A stretch of DNA of 40,135 nucleotides. It comes from a virus. Lineage: Duplodnaviria > Heunggongvirae > Uroviricota > Caudoviricetes. This document shows positions 3,381 to 39,740 of this stretch, one piece after another. Numbering within the stretch: position 1 is the first letter of the stretch; every line of letters begins with the position of its first letter. The notes beneath the pieces are model-generated. The model made no database searches and had not been told where the DNA came from. It saw nothing but the letters and a program-made list of their open reading frames with translations. Made by a program: the position numbers and the translations under genes. Location: IMG/VR virus record IMGVR_UViG_2547132278_000018; one strand, given 5' to 3'.

Positions 3381-3685
3381 TATTTCACCTCTTGTTGTGA
3401 CATTGTTGAAAAATGGATACCTGCTCGTTGCTGCCAGACGATCCAACCGAGAGTCATATCCCATGCCATGTATTCGTTATCGCCGTTTTTTGCTCTCCGA
3501 CGATCTACTAAGTCACCGAAACGCTTTTCCATGAATAATTCATAAGCTTCGCGTTCATCTGGTTCTACTTCCAGAGATAGGAGTGCGATTTCATAAGTAC
3601 GGCGCTCAATATCGTCTCGCACGTCAAGGCTGCTGATACGCTCTTTAATTTCTTTAATCAGTTCTTTGTCGGTAAAAGTGGTCAT
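3380..3685 (-). CDS. Hypothetical early-left (ea-type) protein
   Basis: 101-aa acidic ORF, GGAGG about 10 nt upstream, start/stop overlap with neighbours (operon packing). Confidence 0.6.
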   Translation of the reverse strand: MTTFTDKELIKEIKERISSLDVRDDIERRTYEIALLSLEVEPDEREAYELFMEKRFGDLVDRRRAKNGDNEYMAWDMTLGWIVWQQRAGIHFSTMSQQEVK

Positions 3686-4047
3686 TATGCTCCAGCCTCC
3701 GGTGCTTTTGGCATTACTGCCCAGTGAGTGATATTGACGTTTTCAAGGTCCCCTACCTGAAATGTCCACTGCCATTCTCCGGTTTCTTTTTGTCCCCAGG
3801 TGTACCAGAGAGAACGCCAGCCAATTAGCCAGCCTTCTCCGTTAGCATCGAATAACAAAACACTTTCATTTGCTGGTGGCAGTTCAGTTGACACTGGTAT
3901 TACTTTGTTTTCCTGTGCTGCACATTTAGCTTCAAGCGCATCGAATTTACGCACCAGGTATTCAGCATCTGTTTCATTCACTTTCAGATCTCGCGGTACA
4001 CATCTCCCACGAAGAAACCCTTCCATTTCGAAAACATTCATGCGCAT
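3685..4047 (-). CDS. Hypothetical early-left protein
   Basis: 120-aa ORF with RBS; W-rich; tightly coupled to flanking genes. Confidence 0.6.
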   Translation of the reverse strand: MRMNVFEMEGFLRGRCVPRDLKVNETDAEYLVRKFDALEAKCAAQENKVIPVSTELPPANESVLLFDANGEGWLIGWRSLWYTWGQKETGEWQWTFQVGDLENVNITHWAVMPKAPEAGA

Positions 4048-5591: not shown

Positions 5592-5954
5592 TTAACGACC
5601 TGCTGCGCGGAGTTTTCCGTCAGGTTTACCGGCAAGAGTCAGTAACTGTCCCTGGTCTTCCTGCAGAATAGTCAGGCGACCACCGCGATTGACATACATC
5701 GGCGTTTCGGTGGTGTCTTCTTCGGAAATTTTCCCGCGGTTAGTCGGGCGAACATATGAGAGTTTGTGTTTGATTTTCACACGGTTCTCATCAAATGGTT
5801 CGATTTCCAGGTTGAGTGAGACCTTACCTTTGGTTTTCGTGTTCATCACACCGGAAGCGACTTCACTGAGAACTGCGCCGATTTTGGTTTCAAATACGCC
5901 GCCGTCCAGCTCCCCGATAAATGCCTGCACATCAGTACTGCGTTCGCTAGCCAT
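5592..5954 (-). CDS. YfdP-like prophage protein
   Basis: Start taken at MASERSTDV (GAGGAG RBS 9 nt upstream); the longer track ORF (to 6272) has an Arg-rich non-protein-like extension. Confidence 0.6.
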   Translation of the reverse strand: MASERSTDVQAFIGELDGGVFETKIGAVLSEVASGVMNTKTKGKVSLNLEIEPFDENRVKIKHKLSYVRPTNRGKISEEDTTETPMYVNRGGRLTILQEDQGQLLTLAGKPDGKLRAAGR

Positions 5955-6002
5955 TTTGCTGCTCCTCATCATATCGACCCTGCAAGGACGATTAGTTTCT
6001 CC

Positions 6003-6091
6003 ACAAAACAGAGAAGAACACCTGCGGTGGCAGCCGCCCGGATGGATTGGGTTATGAGCCCGTCGTCCGGTGATGCTCTTCTCTGTTTTGT
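6003..6091. repeat. Perfect 15-bp inverted repeat (ACAAAACAGAGAAGA / TCTTCTCTGTTTTGT) enclosing 59 bp, in the leader of the early-left operon
   Basis: Read directly: arm 1 at 6003-6017, arm 2 at 6077-6091, exact reverse complements. Confidence 0.7.
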
Positions 6092-6392
6092 AAAAAGGAC
6101 GGTACCAGCCGGAAGCAAGGGTACAAACTGGTACCGCCAAGACTACATACAGCATAAAGTTGTGGTGCCGGGTGCCTCCCGGTGCCTGGCGAAGGTTGCA
6201 CACCAGACGGGTGGGTATCCACAGAAGGTCGACTGTCAGCCTCAACCTTAACCCGCGTGCGCTGAGCCGCATTCACCACAACGCTAAGGATTCTCTTTGG
6301 TTGAAAATACTTAGCTGTTATGTGCCTGTCTTTTCACCACTTCAGGCTCGGTGGTATCTTGGTGTTTTCATATAGCCAAGAAGGAAATAGTT

Positions 6393-6584
6393 ATGACCAA
6401 AGAAGAAAAAATTCTTTATTTATTCCAACTATCGGTTAAGACTCACACTGCATATCAGACTGCTGCCATGACATCAGATAAAAATTACAGTACGTCAGAA
6501 AACCCGATAGACGACATAAGCAAGCTTTACGATAAGTTCGAAGCACTACTCGATAAAAAGTTTGCTGAGGCTGGGCTTGAGTGA
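6393..6584 (+). CDS. Small hypothetical protein (63 aa), AT-rich
   Basis: ATG preceded by AAGGA at about 9 nt; MTKEEKILYLFQLSVKTHTAYQ...; converges on and overlaps the 3' end of the 6546-6722 ORF. Confidence 0.35.
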   Translation: MTKEEKILYLFQLSVKTHTAYQTAAMTSDKNYSTSENPIDDISKLYDKFEALLDKKFAEAGLE

Positions 6585-12852: not shown

Positions 12853-13431
12853 ATGATTAATCCTTCTGAAGTTGGCAAATCAGGTGAAATGGTTCGCCTT
12901 CGTACTCTGGAAAGTATCTGGATACAAGGCAAGTTGCGCATGTGGGGCCGCTGGTCTTATATCGGCGGTGGTAGTGGTGGAAACATGTTTAACCAGCTTC
13001 TGGCATCCGGGAAAATCACCAAGACAGCTATCAATGAAGCGCTACGCCGGATGAAGATAGCGGGTATCACCAAGCCTGAACTTGAAGCGTACCTGCGTGA
13101 AATTCTCAACAGCAAAAATAAAAGCGGCCTGGCGTTCTGTTCAGATGAAGAAGGGTTGTTAGTGGACGGTGTCATTGCTTCAGTACTGATGAATGATGAC
13201 TACCGATCGCTCTATAGCGTGATTGTTGACCGGTATCGTCTTCGTAAGAGCAAGTTGCAGATGGCCAATGAACTGCAGGCTAAACATCCTGACTGGCCGC
13301 TGATCACCTGTCGTCGACGCATTGACACTTGGCTAAGTCTTGCAGAATCGATCCTGTACGCTCCAGTTTGTGACGCATTCGGCACAAATAGCGACAGATT
13401 TAAGTTGCAGAGTGAGCAAGAAAGTGCTTAA
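12853..13431 (+). CDS. Putative late-gene antiterminator (Q-like), by position
   Basis: 192 aa immediately upstream of a promoter/short leader/terminator unit and the lysis genes; no confident family recall. Confidence 0.45.
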   Translation: MINPSEVGKSGEMVRLRTLESIWIQGKLRMWGRWSYIGGGSGGNMFNQLLASGKITKTAINEALRRMKIAGITKPELEAYLREILNSKNKSGLAFCSDEEGLLVDGVIASVLMNDDYRSLYSVIVDRYRLRKSKLQMANELQAKHPDWPLITCRRRIDTWLSLAESILYAPVCDAFGTNSDRFKLQSEQESA

Positions 13432-13537: not shown

Positions 13538-14134
13538 ATGACTTGGCAAAACGTACCGTACGCTTTCGAAAAAACTACTGGCGAGTTGACCTTGGTAATA
13601 GAAAAATTACCGCCAATTGAAATCAGTTCTTCCTTTCCTTTTGAAACACTCATTACTGCTCTTGCAGGCGTTATTGCCGCAGGAATAACTGGTTGGGTTG
13701 CATACAGGGCAATCAAAGAAAATTTTGCCTTAGCCACATTACAGGCTCACTTGAATACTAATAAAGAATTGGCGCAACAAATACGTTTTGCTGGCGCTGA
13801 GCATGTGACAGACGTAATTATGTTGGCCAGCACATTTGAGCAATGGCATCTGGTCGGAAATAAGAATATGGATATATTGGCTAAGGGTGTTTTCCCTGAG
13901 GAGATTCAAGTTCCAATAAAGGCCGCTGAAATAAGTAAAAATAAATTACTTCTATTAATAAGGCCTGATGAGGAAGGTTGTAAGTTGATAACCCTGACGG
14001 CAGATCTTCAAAAAGCGCTAAAAGTATGTTTTACAAAAGGGTATTTTACTCCGGAAGAAAAAAAGTCATTTATTGATGCACAAAACGCCTTTATTTTTGG
14101 GTGTCATGAGTATATCAATCAAAGTTTATCTTAA
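13538..14134 (+). CDS. Moron: 198-aa single-pass membrane protein of unknown function
   Basis: AGGAGG RBS; one hydrophobic helix (LITALAGVIAAGITGWVAY); AT-rich; bracketed by terminators. Confidence 0.65.
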   Translation: MTWQNVPYAFEKTTGELTLVIEKLPPIEISSSFPFETLITALAGVIAAGITGWVAYRAIKENFALATLQAHLNTNKELAQQIRFAGAEHVTDVIMLASTFEQWHLVGNKNMDILAKGVFPEEIQVPIKAAEISKNKLLLLIRPDEEGCKLITLTADLQKALKVCFTKGYFTPEEKKSFIDAQNAFIFGCHEYINQSLS

Positions 14135-16128: not shown

Positions 16129-16449
16129 ATGAAAGATGGTATCTATTTTGTTGTTTTCAGAAGCAATCAACGTGATTTTGGTAATGGTACCGTAGTTGTC
16201 AAAAACAATGCAGTAAACGGCGGAGATTTTGGTTTTACGTATCAGGGAAAAATTGACGGTAGCCAACTTATTCTGCGCGTATCGCAGCATGATTTAAATG
16301 TCACCTCGGTTTTCCCTGGGGTAAAGAACTTTGAATTGAGTCTTTCTTTGCAGGAACGAGGACGTGATTACCTGTTAAATGGATCTGTGGTCGGAATGCC
16401 TCAGATGCAAATTTCAATTAGTGCAAAATACATTGGTGATCTGATTTAG
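16129..16449 (+). CDS. GrlR-like protein (moron downstream of lysis cassette)
   Basis: 106 aa beginning MKDGIYFVVF...; recalled as matching the GrlR family; AT-rich, own promoter-like sequence and terminator. Confidence 0.5.
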   Translation: MKDGIYFVVFRSNQRDFGNGTVVVKNNAVNGGDFGFTYQGKIDGSQLILRVSQHDLNVTSVFPGVKNFELSLSLQERGRDYLLNGSVVGMPQMQISISAKYIGDLI

Positions 16450-26205: not shown

Positions 26206-26561
26206 TGGCCCGTATCGGGGGAACCTGTTATTTCAAAATTGACGGTCAGCAGCTATCGCTGACCGGCGGCATTGAGGTGCCCATGAACAGGACGGTCAAT
26301 GATGACATCATCGGCCTGGACGGTTCAGTGGACCGCAAGGAAACTCACCGTGCGCCTTATGTCAAAGGGACCTTCAAGGTGCCGAAGAATTTTCCGGTGA
26401 GCAAAATCACCTCGTCTGATGAGATGACCATCACTGCTGAGCTGGCGAACGGTCAGGTCTATGTATTGTCGTCAGCCTGGCTGCACGGCGAAGCGAACCA
26501 TAATGCCGAAGAAGGCACGGTTGATCTTGAGTTCCACGGTGAAGAAGGGGATTACCAGTAA
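26205..26561 (+). CDS. Tail tube protein
   Basis: 118 aa, start overlaps sheath stop. Confidence 0.8.
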   Translation: MARIGGTCYFKIDGQQLSLTGGIEVPMNRTVNDDIIGLDGSVDRKETHRAPYVKGTFKVPKNFPVSKITSSDEMTITAELANGQVYVLSSAWLHGEANHNAEEGTVDLEFHGEEGDYQ

Positions 26562-26830
26562 TGAAAGAGCTTGAGTTAAAGAAACCGATTACCGCTCATG
26601 GCGAGACACTCTCCGTACTGGAGTTTGATGAGCCCACCGGGAAAGATGTCCGCGAGCTGGGGTATCCCTACCAGATGAATCAGGATGAGTCCGTCAGACT
26701 TCTGGCGCATGTTGTATCGAAATACATTGTGCGGCTGGCGAAAGTGCCGCAAAGCTCTGTCGACCAGATGTCTCCGGCAGACCTGAATGCAGCGGCGTGG
26801 CTTGTGGCTGGTTTTTTCCTCCAGGCCTGA
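26561..26830 (+). CDS. Tail assembly chaperone (G); -1 frameshift extension to 26985 (GT-like)
   Basis: 89 aa; slippery T-TTT-TTC at 26812-26818 in the zero frame; -1 frame continues FFPPGLTAEYLTDRFF... to 26985. Confidence 0.7.
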   Translation: MKELELKKPITAHGETLSVLEFDEPTGKDVRELGYPYQMNQDESVRLLAHVVSKYIVRLAKVPQSSVDQMSPADLNAAAWLVAGFFLQA

Positions 26831-26971
26831 CGGCTGAATACCTCACTGATCGCTTCTTTGACTGCGCCAGCTACTGGCGCATTAATCCCTTCGAATTGCT
26901 GAATATGCCGATCAGTGAAATTCCCTTGCTGGTCAGTCAGGCAAACAGGATAGAGCAGGAGAAACGCGCAC

Positions 26972-28804
26972 ATGGCGGAATTTGAGCTTAAGGCGTTGAT
27001 CACCGGTGTCGACAGGCTTTCTCCCGCGCTGTCGAAAATGCAAAAGAAAATCCGGGGATTTAAACGCCAGGCGGAAGAAGCGTCACAGGGTGGGCTGGCG
27101 CTTGGAGGCGGACTGGCAGCGGGTCTGACGCTTTCCCTGAAATCTTATGCCGATCAGGAAAACGCCGCCACCGGGCTGAAAGTCGCCATGATGGATGCGA
27201 ACGGCGAGGTTGGAAAGAGCTTTCAGGACATCAATAAACTGGCTATTGGCCTGGGTAATCAGCTACCCGGTACAACGGCTGATTTCCAGAACATGATGCA
27301 GATGCTGGTGCGTCAGGGGATCCCGGCAGAAAACATTCTTGGCGGTGTGGGTAAAGCGACAGCTTATCTTGCGGTACAACTGAAAAAAACACCGGAAGCG
27401 GCTGCCGAGTTTGCCGCAAAGATGCAGGATGCTACCGGAACGGCGTCAAAAGACATGATGGGGCTGTTCGACACTATCCAGAAGGCGTTTTATCTGGGCG
27501 TTGACGATACCAACATGTTGTCCTTCTTCACTAAAACCAGCTCTGTTCTGAAGATGGTGAACAAGGACGGTCTTCAGGCTGCACAGAGCCTTGCCCCCAT
27601 CAGCGTCATGATGGATCAGATGGGGATGAACGGGGAGTCGGCAGGTAACGCCCTGCGAAAAGTTATCCAGTCCGGATTAAGCGTTAAGAAAATCAGGGAC
27701 GTCAATAAAATCATGGCCCGCCAGAAACTCGGGGTACAGCTCGATTTTACTGACGGCAAAGGGAGTTTTGGCGGTCTTGATAACATGTTCAGGCAACTGG
27801 CAAAGCTGCGAAAACTGACCGACGTTAAGCGAACAGGCGTACTTAAGGCAATATTTGGTGATGATGCCGAAACCCTTCAGGTGGTCAATGCACTAATCGA
27901 TAAAGGAAAGGATGGCTACGATCAGATCCAGCAGAAGATGAATAAACAGGCCAGCCTGAATAAACGTGTTCAGGCTCAGCTTGGTACGCTGTCCAACCTG
28001 TGGGAGGCAATGACGGGGACCGCAACTAACGGTCTTGCAGCTATTGGCGGCGCATTTTCTGGTGACGCCAAAAATATCACGCAGTGGCTGGGGGAGTTGG
28101 GGGAGAAATTCACGAAGTTTGCGGATGAAAACCCCCGGGTTATTCGCGGCGTCGTCGGGCTTGCTGCCGGTCTTGCGATTCTGAAACTGGGATTGATGGG
28201 CGTGGGCAGTGCCATCAGTATTGTCAGCAGGATTATGTCGATGACGCCGATTGGCATGATTGCGACGGCGATTGCTCTGGCTGCGGGATTAATTATCACT
28301 AACTGGGATGTTGTCGGACCTTATTTTAAGAAGCTCTGGGAAACCATTGGTCCTTATTTTGAGGCTGGCTGGGAACTTCTGAAGAAGGTTTTTGCCTGGT
28401 CGCCGCTGGGGATGGTGATCAAAAACTGGGGACCGGTTGTTAAGTGGTTTCAGGATATGTGGGATAAGCTGAAGCCAATTATTGAGTGGTTTACCGACAG
28501 TTCCGGTGACACGGTCGATGCCATTAACTCTGCGCAGTGGGGCGCGGGTGCTTATGATGCTTATGGGACGGGAATACCGGCGCGGGGATACACACCTTAT
28601 CCGGCGGTAGATCTGGCTCAGTCAAACAACGCCTCCGATGCCACAGGCCCGAATCCCTTCATGATTAACAAAGCTTCTGCGCCAAAAGTTGATGGTGAGA
28701 TCAAGGTATCATTTATAAATATGCCACCAGGTATGCGGGTTACGGAAACACGCTCCAGTGGCATTGATATAAATCACGATGTTGGCTATACCCGATTTTG
28801 GTAG
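26972..28804 (+). CDS. Tape measure protein
   Basis: 610 aa, Ala/Gly-rich with hydrophobic segment. Confidence 0.9.
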   Translation: MAEFELKALITGVDRLSPALSKMQKKIRGFKRQAEEASQGGLALGGGLAAGLTLSLKSYADQENAATGLKVAMMDANGEVGKSFQDINKLAIGLGNQLPGTTADFQNMMQMLVRQGIPAENILGGVGKATAYLAVQLKKTPEAAAEFAAKMQDATGTASKDMMGLFDTIQKAFYLGVDDTNMLSFFTKTSSVLKMVNKDGLQAAQSLAPISVMMDQMGMNGESAGNALRKVIQSGLSVKKIRDVNKIMARQKLGVQLDFTDGKGSFGGLDNMFRQLAKLRKLTDVKRTGVLKAIFGDDAETLQVVNALIDKGKDGYDQIQQKMNKQASLNKRVQAQLGTLSNLWEAMTGTATNGLAAIGGAFSGDAKNITQWLGELGEKFTKFADENPRVIRGVVGLAAGLAILKLGLMGVGSAISIVSRIMSMTPIGMIATAIALAAGLIITNWDVVGPYFKKLWETIGPYFEAGWELLKKVFAWSPLGMVIKNWGPVVKWFQDMWDKLKPIIEWFTDSSGDTVDAINSAQWGAGAYDAYGTGIPARGYTPYPAVDLAQSNNASDATGPNPFMINKASAPKVDGEIKVSFINMPPGMRVTETRSSGIDINHDVGYTRFW

Positions 28805-28895
28805 CCAGAATTCCCCTCACAGGTATTGCTGGTTGTAAGTCATAAATAGAGTGATAGAATTAATGCACATTTAGAAAAATGTTAATAGGCGAAAA

Positions 28896-29426
28896 ATGAA
28901 AGGCTATATCACAGCAAGTGTAATTCTTGGAGCAGCGGCTGTTTTTTCATCTCTCATAATCTCTGGCAACATCTCCTTTAAAGATGAACATATTATTCAG
29001 TTATCTGGAGGAGCCATAAAACTTGGTGATGTTTATAAAGAAAATAAATTGATAAGTGCAAAGATTATTTTTCCAGATAATCAGGGTGAACAGATTCTTG
29101 TTGTCGACGGCAATCCTGAAAACTTTAAGGAGGATTTTCAGGAGAAATTAAATAAAGTAATAAAAACTTTAAATGCGTCAAAGAAAAAAGATGAAGAGAA
29201 AGTTAGCCTGGATAATTTAAGTGTTATTGAAGAGTCTAAACTAGAGCTCGTTTCTGCGGTGCGTTACTCTGCTCAGTATGTTCCTATGTTTACTCTGACG
29301 CTGGACAAAAAAGAAATTACCATGCCTAAAAATACGGTAATATTTCCATTTGCCAGCGATGAAACAGCTAAGTATTTAAATGAACAACAGCAAAAGTATA
29401 AAGATTCGTTGTTTCTGACTCGCTAA
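28896..29426 (+). CDS. Moron: AT-rich 176-aa membrane-anchored/secreted protein of unknown function
   Basis: N-terminal hydrophobic segment (YITASVILGAAAVFSSLIISG), Lys/Glu-rich remainder; much lower GC than flanking tail genes (by eye); own terminator. Confidence 0.65.
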   Translation: MKGYITASVILGAAAVFSSLIISGNISFKDEHIIQLSGGAIKLGDVYKENKLISAKIIFPDNQGEQILVVDGNPENFKEDFQEKLNKVIKTLNASKKKDEEKVSLDNLSVIEESKLELVSAVRYSAQYVPMFTLTLDKKEITMPKNTVIFPFASDETAKYLNEQQQKYKDSLFLTR

Positions 29427-29445
29427 TTAATAAAATTCATTACAA

Positions 29446-29476
29446 GGCCACTTTCTAATAGGTGGCTTTTTTATTT
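29446..29476 (+). terminator. Rho-independent terminator
   Basis: GGCCAC-TTTCTAATAG-GTGGC followed by TTTTTTATTTT. Confidence 0.65.
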
Positions 29477-29481
29477 TCGGA

Positions 29482-30816
29482 GTGTATATGACGTGGAAAG
29501 ACAGGCTTCAGGATGCGTCATTTCGAGGTGTGCCGTTTAAGGTTGAAGAAGAAAGTGCGGGAACCGGCCGTCGTGTGGAAACACACGAATATCCGAACCG
29601 CGACAAACCCTATACCGAAGATCTGGGAAAAGTCACTTTCCGCCCGTCCATCACGGCTTATGTGGTGGGAGATGACTGCTTTGACCAGCGCGATCGCCTG
29701 ATTGAAGCGCTGAATAAACCCGGTCCCGGCACGCTTGTCCACCCGACATATGGTGAGCTGAAAGTCTGTGTTGACGGGGAAGTTCGGGTCAGCACATCGA
29801 AAAGTGAAGGGCGTATTGTCCGCTTTGACCTGAAGTTTGTCGAAGCAGGAGAACTCTCTTACCCCACATCAGGTGCGGCGACGGCGCAGACGCTGATGTC
29901 ATCCTGTTCTGCACTGGATGACTGCATCAGTGACAGCTTCAGCGGTTTCAGTATCGATGGTGTGGCGGATTTCGTGCAGAACGACGTTATCGGTAATGCC
30001 AGCATAATGCTGGGGTATGTTTCTGATGCCATGAAAGTGGTGGATTCTGCCGTATCGGATGCCGCCAGGCTGTTGCAGGGGGATATCTCGGTACTTCTGC
30101 CGCCGCCATCGTCAGGCAAAAATTTCGTTGAGCAGGTGCAGAAAATGTGGCGTACCGGGAAACGCCTTTATGGTAACGCCAGCGACCTGGTCACCATGAT
30201 CAAAACGCTTTCCGGTGTCAGCCTCGGCAGCGATCTGCAACCGCGCGGCGTCTGGAAAACGGACAGTAAAACCACCGCCACGGCGACGCAGCAGCGTAAC
30301 GTGGTTGCCAGCACCCTTCGTACGACCGCAATCAGCGAAGCGGCGTATGCCGTCACCCGATTGCCTGCGCCAACAACTTCCGCGGTGATGCAGAATTCCG
30401 CAGTGGGGCAGGCAACAACAACCGCGCAGAGCACTGGCTGGCCTTCCGTCACGCATCCGGCACTAAACAATGCATCGGCGGTGAAAAACACGGTTGACCT
30501 GCCGACGTGGGAAGAACTGACTGACATTCGCGACACACTGAATACGGCAATTGATAAGGAGTTGTCCCGTACAACCAGTGATGCGCTGTTTCTGGCGCTG
30601 CGCCGGGTGAAAGCAGATCTGAATGCGGATATCAACACGCGCCTTGAACAGTCTGCACGGATCATTCAGCGCACACCGGATGAGGTTTTACCCGCGCTGG
30701 TGCTGGCGGCTACCTGGTTTGATAACGCGGCGCGTGACGCGGACATTATCCGGCGTAATGCCATTACGCATCCCGGCTTTGTGCCGGTGATCCCTCTGAA
30801 GGTGCCAGTGCAATGA
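29482..30816 (+). CDS. DNA circularisation protein (Mu gpN-like)
   Basis: 444 aa, MTWKDRLQDASFRGVPFKVEEES... N-terminus. Confidence 0.8.
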   Translation: MYMTWKDRLQDASFRGVPFKVEEESAGTGRRVETHEYPNRDKPYTEDLGKVTFRPSITAYVVGDDCFDQRDRLIEALNKPGPGTLVHPTYGELKVCVDGEVRVSTSKSEGRIVRFDLKFVEAGELSYPTSGAATAQTLMSSCSALDDCISDSFSGFSIDGVADFVQNDVIGNASIMLGYVSDAMKVVDSAVSDAARLLQGDISVLLPPPSSGKNFVEQVQKMWRTGKRLYGNASDLVTMIKTLSGVSLGSDLQPRGVWKTDSKTTATATQQRNVVASTLRTTAISEAAYAVTRLPAPTTSAVMQNSAVGQATTTAQSTGWPSVTHPALNNASAVKNTVDLPTWEELTDIRDTLNTAIDKELSRTTSDALFLALRRVKADLNADINTRLEQSARIIQRTPDEVLPALVLAATWFDNAARDADIIRRNAITHPGFVPVIPLKVPVQ

Positions 30817-34488: not shown

Positions 34489-35244
34489 ATGCATCGTATA
34501 GACACGAAAACCGCGCAGAAGGATAAGTTCGGCGCGGGTAAGAACGGTTTTACCCGTGGTAACCCCCAGACCGGCACGCCTGCCACCGATCTGGATGATG
34601 ACTACTTTGACATGTTGCAGGAGGAGCTTTGCAGCGTTGTGGAGGCGTCCGGTGCCAGCCTGGAGAAGGGGCGGCACGACCAGCTACTTACCGCGCTTCG
34701 CGCGCTGCTGTTAAGCCGCAAGAATCCGTTTGGCGATATCAAATCGGATGGCACGGTGAAAACGGCTCTCGAAAACCTTGGTTTGGGAGAAGGCTCTGCA
34801 TTACCTGTTGGTGTCCCTGTTCCGTGGCCTTCAGCCACTCCGCCAACAGGCTGGCTGAAATGCAATGGTGCCGCTTTTTCTGCTGAAGAATACCCGGAAC
34901 TGGCAAAGGCTTATCCGACAAATAAATTGCCTGATTTACGTGGTGAGTTTATTCGCGGCTGGGATGACGGGCGCGGGGTTGACTCTGGACGAGGTTTGTT
35001 GACGGCGCAGGCGGAAACAAAGATAACTAACCACCACGGCAATGGCGGTAACGCTGATGATATTTCGGCTGGTGTCTCCGGTTCACCTCCCAAAAACTTT
35101 GTCAGAAACGCGGATTCGGCAGTTAATGCTGGTTCTGGTTTTACCGCTTTTGGCTCTGGAAATTTGACAATGAATGGTGTTACTTCTTATTTCGGTGTCC
35201 GTCCACGCAACATCGCATTTAACTACATTGTGAGGGCTGCATAA
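34489..35244 (+). CDS. Tail fibre protein (constant N-terminus plus currently expressed variable C-terminus)
   Basis: 251 aa; recombination site inside the gene at 34767-34792. Confidence 0.85.
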
Positions 35245-35846
35245 TGGATAGCGCTGTATTAAATAGCGAGTTTATTGCCACGAAGGCGGGGGATATTACT
35301 GTCTATAATTATGATGGTGAAACACGGGAATATATTTCCATATCAACTGAATATCTTGCCGTTGGTGTCGGCATTCCGGCATGTTCCTGTTTAGATGCTC
35401 CAGGCGCATACAAAGCTGGTTATGCAATCTGCCGTTCTGCAGATTTTAAGTCATGGGAATATGTGCCAGACCATCGCGGTGAAATCGTCTTTAGCACCGA
35501 AACAGGAGAATCAAAAGAAATCACAGCTCCGGGTGATTACCCTAATAATACAACCACTATCGCCCCATTAACGCCATACGATAAATGGGATGGTGAGAAA
35601 TGGGTGACGGATACTGAGGCACAGCATAGCGCCGCAGTAGACGCGGCAGAAGCACAGCGCCAGTCACTGATTGATGCTGCAATGGCTTCCATTAGTCTGA
35701 TTCAGCTGAAATTACAGGCCGGACGGAAACTGACGCAGGCAGAAACAACCCGGCTTAACGCTGTGCTGGATTACATTGACGCGGTGACGGCAACAGATAC
35801 CAGCACCGCGCCGAATGTCATCTGGCCTGAACTGCCGGAGGCGTAG
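35244..35846 (+). CDS. Tail fibre assembly protein (Tfa)
   Basis: 200 aa; C-terminal NVIWPELPEA-type ending. Confidence 0.85.
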   Translation: MDSAVLNSEFIATKAGDITVYNYDGETREYISISTEYLAVGVGIPACSCLDAPGAYKAGYAICRSADFKSWEYVPDHRGEIVFSTETGESKEITAPGDYPNNTTTIAPLTPYDKWDGEKWVTDTEAQHSAAVDAAEAQRQSLIDAAMASISLIQLKLQAGRKLTQAETTRLNAVLDYIDAVTATDTSTAPNVIWPELPEA

Positions 35847-36261
35847 GCCATTCAATATCTGGAGCACTGGAGGGATCAACCAGTTCCAGTGCGTCCAGAT
35901 AATCCAGCCATAAATTATATTGCTCCAGCTCGTTACCTTTCAGACGACCAATAGCAGCTTTGCCAGGCCACTGATGGGTGTTGATGTAGGTATTGGCTTC
36001 TGAAACCAAAGATATTTTTTTCATTTCAGCCATCAACACCTCATCCTCTTTTGAAGGCGGTGGGGAATTAATCCATATTGGCCGTCCTGAACTGTCAGCG
36101 CCAATTTCTTTCCCTTCTGGATGCAGCCCAAGAAATTGCTCATATGTTTCTCGGGTAATTTCAATAACATCATCTGGAAGCGTTCCCGCATCCTCATATT
36201 CTGGAAACAATTCTTGTAGATAAAAACTTTTACTTCCGGGTGAAAAGAATACTGAGTTCAT
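35818..36261 (-). CDS. Alternative tail fibre assembly protein (Tfa'), inverted orientation
   Basis: 147 aa; 3' ends of the two tfa genes overlap convergently. Confidence 0.8.
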   Translation of the reverse strand: MNSVFFSPGSKSFYLQELFPEYEDAGTLPDDVIEITRETYEQFLGLHPEGKEIGADSSGRPIWINSPPPSKEDEVLMAEMKKISLVSEANTYINTHQWPGKAAIGRLKGNELEQYNLWLDYLDALELVDPSSAPDIEWPTPPAVQAR

Positions 36262-36263
36262 TC

Positions 36264-36713
36264 TTACCGTCCAATGATTAACGCTGAGACGCTGGTATCT
36301 GAAGGAAAGGCTGCATTCAGTGGTTTGTCGACTTTGAATACAATCGTATTATTCCCCCGGACAGCGGCAAAAGAACAAACCGCCGTCGCGTATGAACCTG
36401 TAATATTACTGGATACACCGCCATAAGCTGTTGTTGATACCAGAGGGATAACGCCCAGCACCTTATTAGGAAATACAAAGGGCAATGTGGCTGTGGCAAT
36501 ATAAGACTTATTAGAACCTGTAATGGCATAAGCATTATCAGTCATTCCATTCATCGCCACTGGACCGCTTATACTTACAGTAACCATCTGAGTGATTAGC
36601 CCGTCAGGTTGACGAATCACAAAATTTCCATTGCCACCAGTAACCGTCCAGAAAGACATATCAGGGATTTGGTTTTCCCCGTTGCCCACATTCCGTTTTG
36701 CCGCTTCTCCCAA
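36264..36713 (-). CDS. Alternative tail-fibre C-terminal cassette (promoterless, in frame with right inversion site)
   Basis: Reading frame runs into the right hix-like site (..LGEAAKRNVGNGEN..); no independent RBS. Confidence 0.7.
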   Translation of the reverse strand: MGEAAKRNVGNGENQIPDMSFWTVTGGNGNFVIRQPDGLITQMVTVSISGPVAMNGMTDNAYAITGSNKSYIATATLPFVFPNKVLGVIPLVSTTAYGGVSSNITGSYATAVCSFAAVRGNNTIVFKVDKPLNAAFPSDTSVSALIIGR

Positions 36714-36784
36714 ACCAACCTTTTAGAAAATGCAGTTATTCGGCTCAGATGGCATGATCCCGGATTTTTACAGGGTTATTTCTC

Positions 36785-37339
36785 ATGCTTATTGGCTATG
36801 TACGTGTGTCAACAAATTACCAGAACACAGATCTACAACGTAATGCGCTGAACTGTGCAGGATGTGAGCTGATTTTTGAAGACAAGATAAGCGGTACAAA
36901 GTCCGACAGACCAGGACTGAAAAAGCTGCTCAGGACATTATCGGCAGGTGACACGCTGGTGGTCTGGAAACTGGACCGACTGGGGCGCAGTATGCGGCAT
37001 CTTGTCGTGCTGGTGGAGGAGTTGCGCGAACGAGGCATCAACTTTCGTAGTCTGACGGATTCAATTGATACCAGTACCCCAATGGGGCGCTTTTTCTTTC
37101 ATGTGATGGGTGCCCTGGCTGAAATGGAGCGTGAACTGATTGTTGAACGAACAAAAGCTGGACTGGAAGCAGCTCGCGCACAGGGACGAATTGGTGGACG
37201 TCGCCCCAAACTTACACCAGAACAATGGGAGCAGGCCGGACGATTAATTGCATCAGGCGTTCCTCGCCAGAAGGTGGCGATCATCTATGATGTTGGTATA
37301 TCGACACTGTATAAGAAGTTTCCGGTCGGAGATAAATGA
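36785..37339 (+). CDS. Serine DNA invertase (Pin/Gin/Hin family)
   Basis: 184 aa; MLIGYVRVSTNYQNTDLQ catalytic Ser region and C-terminal HTH. Confidence 0.93.
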   Translation: MLIGYVRVSTNYQNTDLQRNALNCAGCELIFEDKISGTKSDRPGLKKLLRTLSAGDTLVVWKLDRLGRSMRHLVVLVEELRERGINFRSLTDSIDTSTPMGRFFFHVMGALAEMERELIVERTKAGLEAARAQGRIGGRRPKLTPEQWEQAGRLIASGVPRQKVAIIYDVGISTLYKKFPVGDK

Positions 37340-37399: not shown

Positions 37400-38269
<870 letters not shown>

Positions 38270-38987: not shown

Positions 38988-39740
38988 GTGGATGATATGG
39001 CAACTACATGTTCAGTTATATTGATTTTGGAGTCCTTTGATGTTTATTTCGGAAAAGAGAGTGTGTTTCTGGAGAGAGGTTCATCTGTACTTGTCGACTC
39101 TAGCTCTAGAGATTTTTTCCTGACATATCCTGAAAGAGTGATAGTGGCGGATTTTGGCGCTGAGTTTATTAGTCGCTATTTGAAAGCTAATAACTTAAGG
39201 GATATTTCTGATTGTAGGGAATATCCATCTTATTTAAAAATAAACTTTGCTGACTTCAGTTTAATTAAAGGATTAATTAGTTGGGCTAATCACTGTGCTG
39301 AATACATAGAAATTTTTGATGAGTCTATTGCTTTTACATGTCTCTCTGCATTTTCTTCTGAAAAACAATTTGGAGTATTTCTGTTTGGATGTTTGAAAAG
39401 CACAGGGGCTAAAGTTAAAACGATTATTCATACGGATTTATCTGCACCATGGCGTCTTAAGGATATATCATCAAGATTATATCTCAGCGAAAGTTTACTA
39501 AAGAGGAAATTGAAAGAAGAGGGGGTATCATTCAGTAAGATCATACTTGATGAGAGGATGCAAATGGCTGAATATTTACTCAGCACTCGTTGTTATCCTA
39601 TTAGTAAAGTAGCTAAGGTCTGTGGTTATGCCAGTGTCTCATACTTTACTTATGTATTTAGACGTTATTTTGGTGTTTCTCCAAGTCAATACTCTCAGAG
39701 GAGTTCAGAAAGTAAAATTCTTACTCACCAGGGAATCTGA
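38988..39740 (+). CDS. AraC/XylS-family transcriptional regulator (AppY/GadX-like group)
   Basis: 250 aa; C-terminal double-HTH region (WRLKDISSRLYLSESLLKRKLKEEG ... GYASVSYFTYVFRRYFGVSP); very AT-rich gene and about 570-bp upstream region. Confidence 0.85.
   Translation: MDDMATTCSVILILESFDVYFGKESVFLERGSSVLVDSSSRDFFLTYPERVIVADFGAEFISRYLKANNLRDISDCREYPSYLKINFADFSLIKGLISWANHCAEYIEIFDESIAFTCLSAFSSEKQFGVFLFGCLKSTGAKVKTIIHTDLSAPWRLKDISSRLYLSESLLKRKLKEEGVSFSKIILDERMQMAEYLLSTRCYPISKVAKVCGYASVSYFTYVFRRYFGVSPSQYSQRSSESKILTHQGI

What the first reader, a model, noticed from the sequence alone, without database searches (positions are those of the whole stretch)
28805..29481. AT-rich membrane-anchored moron inserted between tape measure and DNA-circularisation genes
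Seen: a 176-aa ORF with an N-terminal signal-anchor-like helix and Lys/Glu-rich body, markedly lower GC than the flanking tail genes (by eye), its own intergenic spacer upstream and a hairpin terminator downstream (29446-29476). Established: phage HK97 carries a superinfection-exclusion membrane protein (gp15) as a moron inside its tail gene cluster. Inference: this is an analogous lysogen-expressed gene, possibly blocking DNA entry of incoming phage.
Basis: partly seen in the sequence, partly recalled or inferred. Interest (0 to 1): 0.55.

Follow-up and report, generated by a model that had tools for sequence, protein, structure and literature searches.

The report
Membrane-anchored accessory gene in prophage tail cluster
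A small AT-rich gene sits between two tail genes of an SfV-like E. coli prophage and encodes an uncharacterised protein anchored in the inner membrane. It looks like a self-contained add-on that benefits the host cell, plausibly by blocking other phages, but no experiment has tested its function.

Summary
A 176-aa ORF (28896-29426, +) with GC 0.345 lies between the tape measure gene and the Mu-N-type "DNA circularisation" gene, whose GC is 0.52-0.56. It has a 91-bp upstream spacer with a promoter-like site and a hairpin terminator downstream.

The window is a complete SfV-like, Q-antiterminated prophage at thrW. The tape-measure|N junction is a cargo hotspot. In 76 close relatives it is empty (23), holds this gene (23), or holds one of three unrelated AT-rich single genes.

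The protein belongs to PHROG 5485 (unknown function). It has no Pfam, NCBIfam or PADLOC match, and a confident AlphaFold model finds no PDB neighbour. The predicted layout is an N-in signal anchor plus a periplasmic alpha/beta domain.

Homologues at 34-59% identity occupy the same slot in prophages of Leclercia, Citrobacter and Cronobacter. Two orphan copies, in Lelliottia and Erwinia, survive next to icd with a tape-measure scar. The gene is under purifying selection.

So it is a genuine moron-type accessory gene that hosts retain. The superinfection-exclusion reading is plausible (about 0.45) but untested, and the gene is not homologous to HK97 gp15. It is an old resident of the slot rather than a recent insertion. 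The terminator looks like part of the slot backbone rather than the cargo.

The parts
26972..28804 (+). Tail tape measure protein gene (left flank of the slot)
   Evidence: Pfam PhageMin_Tail at 1.6e-26 and tape-measure PHROGs. PGAP name 'phage tail tape measure protein'. GC 0.516.
28805..28895 (+). 91-bp AT-rich spacer upstream of the ORF, left part of the cassette
   Evidence: GC 0.34. Absent from the 64-bp empty junction of SfII, SfI and SfV. About 190 bp upstream of the ORF is retained in the Lelliottia orphan.
28833..28860 (+). Promoter-like site: TTGTAA, 16 nt, TG-extended TAGAAT
   Evidence: Consensus scan gives 9 of 12 matches plus TG. The scan also found TTGTCA-type sites just upstream of the ORF in L177 (11/12) and L010 (9/12). 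A weaker TTGCAA in L005 is seen only by eye in the alignment. Function is not shown.
28896..29426 (+). 176-aa ORF (RefSeq WP_000679481.1, 'hypothetical protein'), member of PHROG 5485
   Evidence: GC 0.345, GC3 0.30. Purifying selection.
28899..28964 (+). Codons 2-23: predicted N-in signal-anchor transmembrane helix
   Evidence: Kyte-Doolittle 2.09 over residues 5-23. AlphaFold helix 2-23. Positive-inside rule holds in 46 of 49 relatives. Cleavage by signal peptidase is not excluded.
28992..29045 (+). Codons 33-50: membrane-proximal beta-hairpin carrying the family's most conserved motif (G39, L43, G44, Y47, E49)
   Evidence: Alignments A1 and A2. Model strands 33-36, 39-42 and 46-58.
29046..29423 (+). 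Codons 51-176: remainder of the periplasmic alpha/beta domain (strands 46-58 and 67-72, helix 74-93, Lys/Glu-rich loop 94-113, strands 114-126 and 132-143, helix 149-171)
   Evidence: AlphaFold model ma7c863832a6b, pLDDT 90.3, pTM 0.75. Conserved Y124 and L134.
29444..29479 (+). Hairpin (29444-29469) plus T-run: intrinsic-terminator-like element at the right edge of the slot
   Evidence: A hairpin followed by the same T-tract and ribosome-binding site also precedes the N gene in the empty SfII junction and after other cargos. By eye the stems in the window, SfII and L077 are related, so it is probably backbone.
29488..30816 (+). Mu N/gp43-type 'DNA circularisation'/baseplate hub gene (right flank of the slot)
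   Evidence: Pfam DNA_circ_N at 3.7e-34 and PHROG 184 baseplate hub. PGAP start at 29488.

Best explanation
The element is a moron-type accessory cassette, meaning a promoter plus one gene. It occupies a dedicated cargo slot between the tape measure gene and the N (gp43-like) gene of an SfV-like temperate myovirus.

Its product is anchored in the inner membrane by an N-terminal helix, with the N-terminus in the cytoplasm. It displays a roughly 150-residue alpha/beta domain in the periplasm, close to the membrane surface.

I infer that it is transcribed from its own promoter in the lysogen and stops at the slot's terminator. During lytic growth the Q-modified late transcription reads through that terminator.

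The most likely function is protection of the lysogen from incoming phages at the periplasm/inner-membrane step. The protein would bind a component of the DNA-delivery machinery, such as a tape measure or tail-tip protein or a host inner-membrane factor it uses, so that genome entry fails.

What is shown: optional presence, foreign composition, conserved slot, purifying selection, retention as an orphan, and predicted topology and fold. What is inferred: expression in the lysogen, the anti-phage role and the target.

My confidence that it is a host-retained accessory gene is about 0.85. My confidence in the exclusion mechanism specifically is about 0.45, and that is the figure given below.
For: 1. 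Optional cargo. SfII, SfI and SfV join the same genes across 64 bp. Of 76 scorable IMG/VR relatives with an N protein at least 98% identical, 23 are empty and 23 carry this gene. Another 23 carry a signal-peptide protein, 6 an oppositely oriented TM+OB-fold protein and 1 a PH-domain protein. All cargos have GC 0.31-0.38.

2. Foreign composition, maintained. GC is 0.345 against 0.52-0.58 in the flanks. Homologues stay at 0.35-0.41 in every enterobacterial context.

3. Old and conserved placement. Homologues 34-59% identical sit in the same slot in prophages assigned to Leclercia, Citrobacter and Cronobacter, and a second E. coli allele does too. Where compared (three loci), the tail proteins other than the tape measure and the assembly chaperone are 68-90% identical.

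4. Selection. pN/pS is 0.12/0.74 between the Leclercia phage copy and the Lelliottia orphan. Among 26 E. coli alleles, 12 variable codons are synonymous only and 8 are mostly conservative replacements.

5. Retention without the phage. In Lelliottia and Erwinia an intact copy sits just downstream of icd. Each has a remnant of the tape measure C-terminus directly upstream (tblastn 2e-7 and 2e-5). The Lelliottia copy keeps a terminator-like hairpin. The two copies belong to different subclades, which suggests two independent survivals of prophage decay.

6. Distant relatives (about 25% identity) lie in accessory regions of roughly 10-kb integrative elements in Pseudomonas and others. One of these regions also holds an Mrr-like nuclease.

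7. Envelope location. Hydrophobic helix 2-23, positive-inside rule in 46 of 49 members, and a model with pLDDT 90. The only structural neighbour is a phage protein named lipoprotein (Pseudomonas phage ventosus; Foldseek E 2e-6).

8. Precedent. HK97 gp15, beside the tape measure gene, and P22 SieA are prophage-expressed inner-membrane proteins that block DNA entry (PMC3594210; PMC10883804).

9. The window encodes a Q antiterminator (PF06530). Q-dependent late expression is described for the related phage SfIV (PMC3851460).
Against: - There are no expression data and no phenotype.
- The promoter is only a consensus match, no more frequent than in shuffled sequence.
- The protein shows no similarity to any known exclusion or defence protein.
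- The terminator is probably shared with the empty slot, so it is weak evidence for autonomy.
- In a small sample, genomes carrying the gene have a second SfV-like junction at least as often as those that lack it: about 8 of 40 listed carrier records against 5 of 50. This gives no sign of exclusion of its own kind, although the order of acquisition is unknown.
- No family member occurs in 50,697 cultured phage records, so no isolated phage is available that carries it.
- An envelope protein retained by hosts could just as well serve a role unrelated to phages.
Confidence: 0.45

Rival explanations
1. It is a lysogenic-conversion envelope factor unrelated to blocking DNA entry. The periplasmic domain would alter an envelope process at the outer face of the inner membrane, for example O-antigen polymerisation or modification, peptidoglycan or lipoprotein handling, or tolerance of colicins, bile or serum. 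The result would be a change in host fitness or surface properties, which could include indirect loss of phage adsorption.
For: - The evidence for host retention and envelope location fits this reading equally well.
- SfV-family phages are known for O-antigen conversion genes (PMC3851460). This prophage has none at its right end, which carries a GIY-YIG protein and an AraC-type regulator instead.
- Orphan copies in Kosakonia sit among ordinary chromosomal genes.
- Carriers are not depleted of second SfV-like prophages.
Against: - No similarity to any enzyme or known envelope factor, and no catalytic-looking conserved residues. The invariant positions are mostly Gly, Leu and Tyr plus one Glu.
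- The distant relatives sit in small mobile elements, one next to an Mrr-like nuclease. Accessory genes of such elements are often anti-phage; that general point is from my own knowledge.
Confidence: 0.3
2. It is a lytic-cycle accessory protein, made only from the Q-dependent late transcript. It would act in the infected cell's envelope, for example by preventing progeny or secondary phages from injecting into the dying cell, or by modulating the timing of lysis.
For: - The gene is co-oriented with the late operon and lies inside it.
- The promoter is unproven.
- The terminator looks like backbone and would be read through under Q antitermination.
Against: - Two orphan copies persist intact and under purifying selection with no phage late promoter or tail genes nearby.
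- One alternative cargo of the same slot is transcribed against the late operon.
- The phage has a complete lysis cassette elsewhere: two holins, an endolysin and an Rz1-like LysC.
- The gene is dispensable in SfII, SfI and SfV.
Confidence: 0.12
3. It is a structural or assembly component of the tail that some SfV-like phages need.
For: It is located between two tail genes and keeps that position across genera.
Against: - The plaque-forming, sequenced phages SfII, SfI, SfV and SfIV lack it and join the same genes directly.
- It has a transmembrane anchor and a predicted periplasmic topology.
- Its composition is foreign.
- It has no PHROG structural annotation.
- It persists as an orphan without any tail genes.
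Confidence: 0.03

Closest known systems
HK97 gp15 (the first described moron; superinfection exclusion protein)
   Same: Both are single small genes inside the tail operon beside the tape measure gene. Both have deviant GC and are described as having their own promoter and terminator. Both products are inner-membrane proteins. gp15 is expressed from the prophage and blocks genome entry in a way that depends on the incoming phage's tail region (PMC3594210).
   Different: There is no detectable sequence relationship: the Pfam scan at E<=1 returned nothing. gp15 lies upstream of the tape measure gene in a siphovirus, whereas this gene lies downstream of it in a contractile-tailed phage. gp15 is called a small protein and resembles the host YebO family. 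This protein has a roughly 150-residue periplasmic domain and no relative of known function outside mobile elements or their remnants. Its function has not been tested.
P22 SieA
   Same: Both are prophage-encoded inner-membrane proteins of about 160-175 aa. SieA blocks DNA delivery by interfering with ejected phage proteins. SieA types are very divergent (under 30% identity), like this family (PMC10883804).
   Different: SieA has three predicted transmembrane segments and no large periplasmic domain. It is encoded elsewhere in a podovirus genome. No sequence similarity was found.
Gram-positive membrane-anchored exclusion proteins (lactococcal Tuc2009 Sie2009 type; S. thermophilus TP-J34 Ltp lipoprotein)
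   Same: A surface-exposed domain is tethered to the cytoplasmic membrane, by an N-terminal helix or a lipid, and blocks DNA injection. These proteins are cited as analogues in PMC10883804 and PMC3952083. The only structural neighbour of the present protein is likewise a lipid-anchored phage protein by name.
   Different: The hosts and phages are different. No PHROG annotated as superinfection exclusion matched.
PHROG 5485 / PHROG 34391 (unknown function)
   Same: The ORF matches phrog_5485 end to end (E 4e-108, 1-176 of 176). Its N-terminal 106 residues match phrog_34391.
   Different: These families carry no functional annotation, so membership names the protein but does not explain it.
Lambda Bor and Lom (envelope morons affecting host phenotype)
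   Same: Lom is cited as a prophage-expressed protein that improves the interaction of E. coli with human cells (PMC3594210). That Bor and Lom are envelope proteins encoded in or beside the late/tail region is from my own knowledge.
   Different: Bor is an outer-membrane lipoprotein and Lom an outer-membrane beta-barrel (my own knowledge). The present protein has neither a lipobox nor barrel features, and no homology to them was detected.

Membership tests
Moron (Juhala/Hendrix sense) | Extra DNA present at a site where close relatives join the flanking genes directly | tested here: met
   SfII, SfI and SfV, plus 23 of 76 IMG/VR relatives, have a 64-bp junction. The window has 681 bp there.
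Moron (Juhala/Hendrix sense) | Base composition different from the surrounding genes | tested here: met
   GC 0.345 and GC3 0.30, against 0.52-0.58 and 0.57-0.65.
Moron (Juhala/Hendrix sense) | Own promoter | tested here: inconclusive
   One consensus-like site at 28833-28860, no more than chance gives. TTGTCA-type sites lie just upstream of the ORF in L177 and L010. The upstream region is kept in the orphan copies. No transcript data exist.
Moron (Juhala/Hendrix sense) | Own terminator | tested here: inconclusive
   A good hairpin plus T-run follows the ORF. However, a related hairpin and the same T-tract are present in the empty SfII junction and after other cargos, so it probably belongs to the slot.
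Moron (Juhala/Hendrix sense) | Expressed from the repressed prophage | not testable with these tools
   This needs RNA-seq, 5'-RACE or a reporter fusion in an uninduced lysogen. The only indirect support is that the gene persists as an intact orphan.
HK97 gp15 / YebO family | Sequence homology to gp15/YebO | tested here: not met
   The Pfam-A scan at E<=1 returned no family for the ORF, and none was shared by the 49 relatives. That Pfam-A contains a YebO model is from my memory. No direct pairwise comparison with gp15 was run.
Known superinfection-exclusion or defence proteins (PHROGs annotated as such; PADLOC-DB 2.0) | Profile match to a described exclusion or defence family | tested here: not met
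   PHROGs gave only unknown-function families plus a chance-level endonuclease hit at E 0.014. PADLOC returned 0 families at E<=10. NCBIfam returned 0.
Superinfection exclusion (functional class) | Expression in a cell reduces infection by a phage after normal adsorption | not testable with these tools
   This needs a phage challenge. The genome sample shows no depletion of second SfV-like prophages in carriers, which is weak and indirect.
i-spanin (Rz-type) | Type II membrane protein with a coiled-coil periplasmic domain, paired with an o-spanin lipoprotein in the lysis cassette | tested here: not met
   The topology is similar, but the periplasmic domain is a beta-sheet/helix sandwich. There is no spanin PHROG match and no adjacent lipoprotein gene. 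The phage has its own lysis cassette with an Rz1-like LysC.
PHROG 5485 | Full-length profile match | tested here: met
   E 4.3e-108, residues 1-176 on profile positions 1-176 of 176.
Tail structural/assembly protein | Required in all members of the tail type; soluble or virion-associated | tested here: not met
   Absent from SfII, SfI, SfV and SfIV. Predicted to be membrane-anchored. Virion content could not be tested.

The most novel reading that the evidence does not exclude
The family would be a previously unrecognised class of inner-membrane-anchored periplasmic proteins with a fold that has no solved relative. It would block genome delivery by contractile-tailed (Mu/SfV-type) or other phages through binding the tape measure or tail-tip complex as it reaches the inner membrane. 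The tape-measure|N junction of SfV-like phages would then be a dedicated hotspot for interchangeable envelope-acting immunity genes. Bacteria would have domesticated this gene at least twice from decayed prophages.
Probability: 0.25. Interest if true: 0.65.

Novelty: new member of a known kind. Interest (0 to 1): 0.45.

Why it matters
The gene is common. It occurs in 174 of 5,426 complete E. coli genomes, and a second E. coli allele and homologues in other genera also exist. Even so, it is entirely unannotated, and no literature hit was found for its RefSeq accession.

The comparative pattern marks it as a good candidate for a prophage-encoded host-protective function:
- a fixed slot with interchangeable, mostly envelope-targeted cargos;
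- purifying selection;
- two orphan survivors of prophage decay.

If it blocks DNA entry, it would be an exclusion protein encoded by, and perhaps aimed at, Mu-type-tailed temperate phages of enterobacteria. It would also provide a handle on how those phages cross the inner membrane.

The slot itself offers a ready list of further candidates: a signal-peptide protein, a TM+OB-fold protein and a PH-domain protein. If the gene instead does something else in the envelope, it is still a widespread lysogenic-conversion factor worth a phenotype screen.

Tried and rejected
- **Family libraries.** Pfam, NCBIfam and PADLOC gave nothing for the ORF. Pfam on 49 relatives gave no shared family. PADLOC on the four alternative cargos gave nothing.
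- **PDB by sequence profile.** No hits.
- **Cultured phages.** tblastn of four family members against 50,697 records gave no match.
- **Species-representative genomes.** One scan found nothing and the second found one Citrobacter MAG. The alignment A2 was too divergent to make search patterns.
- **IMG/VR scans with three mid-distance relatives.** Nothing found.
- **Invertible-promoter idea.** This was raised by the resolvase gene next to the distant homologues. No convincing inverted repeats were found, so it was dropped.
- **Tandem paralogy.** The 180-aa gene upstream of the Pseudomonas homologue shows none.
- **Rfam on the cassette.** Only a sub-threshold chance hit.
- **Plasmid records carrying the cassette.** The one inspected is a 35-kb IS26-containing circle lacking the integrase and immunity region. 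It was not used as evidence of induction.
- **Literature.** Nothing on WP_000679481 or on a cargo slot at this junction.
- A PHROG scan of the alternative cargos failed on coordinates.
Full report
**1. What is in the sequence**

The window holds an ORF at 28896-29426 on the + strand: 176 codons with an ATG start. Its GC content is 0.345 and GC3 is 0.30. The eleven surrounding tail genes have GC 0.52-0.58 and GC3 0.57-0.65 (profiles).

A 91-bp spacer of GC 0.34 separates the ORF from the stop codon of the upstream gene. This spacer contains one sigma-70-like site, TTGTAA-16 nt-TAGAAT with a TG extension, at 28833-28860. One such site is no more than shuffled sequence gives, so on its own it proves nothing.

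Downstream, a 10-pair hairpin at 29444-29469 is followed by a T-run. The 71-nt stretch around it folds with z = -3.1 against shuffles.

Residues 5-23 form a 19-residue hydrophobic stretch (Kyte-Doolittle mean 2.09), and the protein is rich in Lys (11.9%) and Glu (8.0%). The only adjustment is that the next gene probably starts at ATG 29488 rather than GTG 29482.

**2. Genomic setting**

The window matches an E. coli chromosome at 100% identity over the 901-bp stretch tested (28700-29600). It is a complete temperate phage inserted at a tRNA-Thr gene beside proA. PGAP annotates an integrase, CI/Cro-type regulators, replication genes, a lysis cassette, terminase, HK97-type head genes and a Mu-type contractile tail. 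It also carries a Q-type antiterminator (PF06530).

The closest cultured phages are the Shigella and E. coli phages SfII, SfI, SfV, SfIV, SKA5, vB_EcoM-689R6 and vB_EcoM-720R4.

The flanking genes are the tape measure gene (26972-28804; Pfam PhageMin_Tail) and the Mu N/gp43-type gene (Pfam DNA_circ_N; PHROG baseplate hub).

**3. The junction is a cargo slot**

In SfII, SfI and SfV the two flanking genes are 64 bp apart. SKA5 and 720R4 each carry a different AT-rich gene there, and both encode proteins with an N-terminal signal sequence.

I surveyed 80 IMG/VR contigs whose N protein is at least 98% identical to the window's, and 76 could be scored:

| Slot content | Contigs |
|---|---|
| Empty | 23 |
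| This ORF | 23 |
| SKA5-type signal-peptide protein | 23 |
| 148-aa protein with an N-terminal TM helix and a tRNA_anti-like OB fold, on the opposite strand | 6 |
| 125-aa bacterial PH-domain protein | 1 |

All cargos have GC 0.31-0.38. These 80 were the best matches out of 577, so the proportions are not an unbiased census.

In complete E. coli genomes, 1,067 of 5,426 match the query's flanking sequence and 174 carry this ORF.

The right edge of the slot is conserved: a hairpin, then TTTTTTAT, a few bases, and the GGAG ribosome-binding site of N. The empty SfII junction has this too, and its depositors annotated it as a terminator. By eye, the stems in SfII (CCCAC..GTGGG), L077 (GCCCAC..GTGGGC) and the window (GGCCAC..GTGGC) are related. 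I therefore read the terminator as part of the slot backbone. The cargo proper is the upstream spacer plus the ORF.

**4. The protein**

It matches PHROG 5485 (unknown function) end to end at E 4e-108. It has no Pfam, NCBIfam or PADLOC match even at permissive thresholds.

A word-indexed search found only close relatives. An exhaustive HMMER scan of 1.84 billion representatives found 63 clusters at E<=0.001, and the full-length ones are 166-203 residues long with the same layout. The layout is:
- a short positively charged N-terminus;
- a hydrophobic helix;
- a conserved motif immediately after the helix (G39, L43, G44, Y47, E49);
- a second conserved patch (Y124, L134).

The positive-inside rule favours an N-in, C-out orientation in 46 of 49 members. 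The family's one lipobox-like pattern (P0050) lies at residue 6, before the helix, and Cys is rare in the family.

With a 16-sequence alignment AlphaFold gave a weak model (pLDDT 62). With the 49-sequence alignment it gave a confident one (pLDDT 90.3, pTM 0.75). That model has helix 2-23, a linker, strands 33-36, 39-42, 46-58 and 67-72, helix 74-93, a Lys/Glu-rich loop, strands 114-126 and 132-143, and helix 149-171.

The conserved residues do not look catalytic, so I infer a binding role. Whether the helix stays as an anchor or is cleaved as a signal peptide is unresolved. Its conservation (0.75 mean column identity, about the same as the whole protein) leans towards an anchor. Either way, the body of the protein is predicted to be periplasmic.

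**5. Evolutionary pattern**

Homologues 51-59% identical sit in the same slot in SfV-like prophages of Leclercia adecarboxylata and L. pneumoniae, a Citrobacter MAG, an IMG/VR contig and a metagenome contig of unknown host. A second E. coli allele does the same. A Cronobacter copy at 35% identity does too.

In the three loci compared, the tail proteins other than the tape measure and the assembly chaperone are 68-90% identical. The cargo therefore diverges faster than its neighbours. All copies keep low GC (0.35-0.41). So this is an old resident of the slot, not a recent insertion.

The gene is under purifying selection. pN/pS is 0.12/0.74 between the Leclercia phage copy and the Lelliottia orphan. 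Among 26 E. coli alleles, 12 variable codons are synonymous only and 8 carry mostly conservative replacements.

The most telling result concerns orphan copies. In Lelliottia amnigena and in Erwinia rhapontici an intact copy lies alone just downstream of icd. Directly upstream of each is a remnant of the tape measure C-terminus (tblastn E 2e-7 and 2e-5). No other phage genes are called in the flanks, and no N-gene remnant was found. The Lelliottia copy keeps about 190 bp of upstream sequence and a terminator-like hairpin. The two orphans belong to different subclades, at 54% and 34% identity to the window protein. I therefore read them as two independent cases in which a decaying prophage lost everything except this cassette.

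Kosakonia has orphans without a detectable scar. Distant relatives (about 25% identity) in Pseudomonas and unidentified bacteria lie in accessory parts of integrative elements of roughly 10 kb. These elements carry serine or tyrosine recombinases and, in one type, a DUF5906/VapE-like primase. In one type the homologue is near an Mrr-like nuclease.

**6. Interpretation**

These results fit the classical moron concept: optional, compositionally foreign DNA at a permissive site (PMC3594210). They add evidence that bacterial hosts keep the gene for its own sake.

Two experimentally studied precedents give the closest mechanism.
- HK97 gp15 is encoded beside the tape measure gene. It inserts into the inner membrane and blocks genome entry in a way that depends on the incoming phage's tail region.

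More recent work shows that tape measure proteins are recurrent targets of prophage and host defences (Tab, PMC10884400; SNIPE, PMC13190303).

On that basis my best explanation is a prophage-expressed, membrane-tethered periplasmic protein that interferes with genome delivery by incoming phages. I rate it at about 0.45 because nothing here tests it. The promoter is only a consensus match. No known exclusion family matches.

In addition, a small sample shows no depletion of second SfV-like junctions in carrier genomes. About 8 of 40 listed carrier records have one, against 5 of 50 non-carrier records. This argues weakly against exclusion of its own kind.

The main rival, at 0.30, is an envelope factor with a host-fitness role unrelated to DNA entry. 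A late-only lytic role (0.12) fits poorly with the orphan copies and with the oppositely oriented cargo found in the same slot. A structural tail role (0.03) is contradicted by the gene's absence from viable relatives and by the membrane anchor.

**7. Comparison with the known and verdict**

The element works like a moron and meets two defining features, extra DNA and deviant composition. The promoter and terminator criteria are inconclusive, and expression could not be tested. The gene is not a member of the gp15/YebO or SieA families or of any catalogued defence family. It is a member of PHROG 5485, which has no function assigned.

I class it as a new member of a known kind: an ordinary type of element carrying an uncharacterised, fairly widespread protein family with no solved structural relative. 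Interest is moderate. The slot polymorphism and the twice-retained orphan make a clear, testable case, but the biology proposed would not surprise a phage specialist.

Noticed in passing
window 28805-29481; L001 2306-2989; L004 2317-2925; L066 ~3409-4000; L077 ~3505-4000: The tape-measure|N junction of SfV-like phages is a polymorphic single-gene cargo slot with at least six states: empty, this ORF, two different signal-peptide proteins, a TM+OB-fold (tRNA_anti-like) protein on the opposite strand, and a bPH_1 PH-domain protein. Four of the five cargos are predicted envelope proteins. None matches PADLOC.
   Followed up: partly
L002 2321-2359 (SfII); window 29444-29479: Even the empty junction carries a terminator-like hairpin plus T-run immediately before the N gene's ribosome-binding site, in the middle of the late tail operon. 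Its role there (attenuation, mRNA stabilisation or a relic of lost cargo) is unexplained.
   Followed up: partly
L010 7810-8568 (Lelliottia); L187 ~5780-6525 (Erwinia): Orphan copies of the cassette lie just downstream of icd in two genera, each with a scar of the tape measure C-terminus. Both look like the last surviving piece of a decayed prophage integrated at icd.
   Followed up: partly
L005 10013-11808 (also L006-L009, L182): Leclercia-type relatives have two extra genes (about 503 aa and 94 aa, no Pfam hit) between N and the gp44-like baseplate gene. The window and the E. coli and Shigella phages examined lack them, so this may be a second variable position in the tail module.
   Followed up: no
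window 13538-14134: A 198-aa ORF with no Pfam match lies in a low-GC stretch (about 0.39) between the Q antiterminator (12853-13431) and the holin genes. The SfIV paper describes this position as a moron site.
   Followed up: partly
window 16129-16449: A 106-aa ORF in a low-GC stretch (about 0.41) between the lysis genes and the HNH/terminase genes. It resembles GrlR, a negative regulator of type III secretion. Its Pfam score (26.7) is just under the 26.8 cut-off, and PGAP names it a GrlR family regulator.
   Followed up: partly
window 37400-38224 (-) and 38988-39740 (+): The right end of the prophage carries a LEM-3-like GIY-YIG domain protein and an AraC-family regulator in the most AT-rich part of the window (GC 0.33-0.44). 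No O-antigen (gtr) conversion genes, for which the SfV family is known, were seen there.
   Followed up: partly
window 34489-37339: Tail fibre and fibre-assembly genes in opposite orientations (35244-35846 on +, 35818-36713 on -) lie next to a pinE-type invertase gene (36785-37339). This suggests an invertible host-range segment as in e14 and Mu.
   Followed up: no
window 26561-26985: The tail assembly chaperone ORF (26561-26830) is overlapped by a 62-aa ORF in another frame (26797-26985) that ends inside the start of the tape measure gene. This arrangement is expected for a programmed frameshift product.
   Followed up: no
L011 3100-14400; L014 3900-14500; L015 5200-15400: Distant homologues sit on small integrative elements. 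Two in Pseudomonas are bounded by the two halves of an FKBP-type gene and carry a large serine recombinase, a small resolvase and, in one type, an Mrr-like nuclease. A third type has a tyrosine integrase and a DUF5906/VapE-like primase, which resembles a phage satellite.
   Followed up: partly
NZ_CP101274.1 871499-873271 (hit H54); CP088862.1 (L193): In one E. coli genome an IS5-family element is annotated within the matched cassette region. Several records labelled as plasmids carry the cassette; the one inspected is a 35-kb IS26-containing circle made of the phage's late region without integrase or repressor.
   Followed up: no
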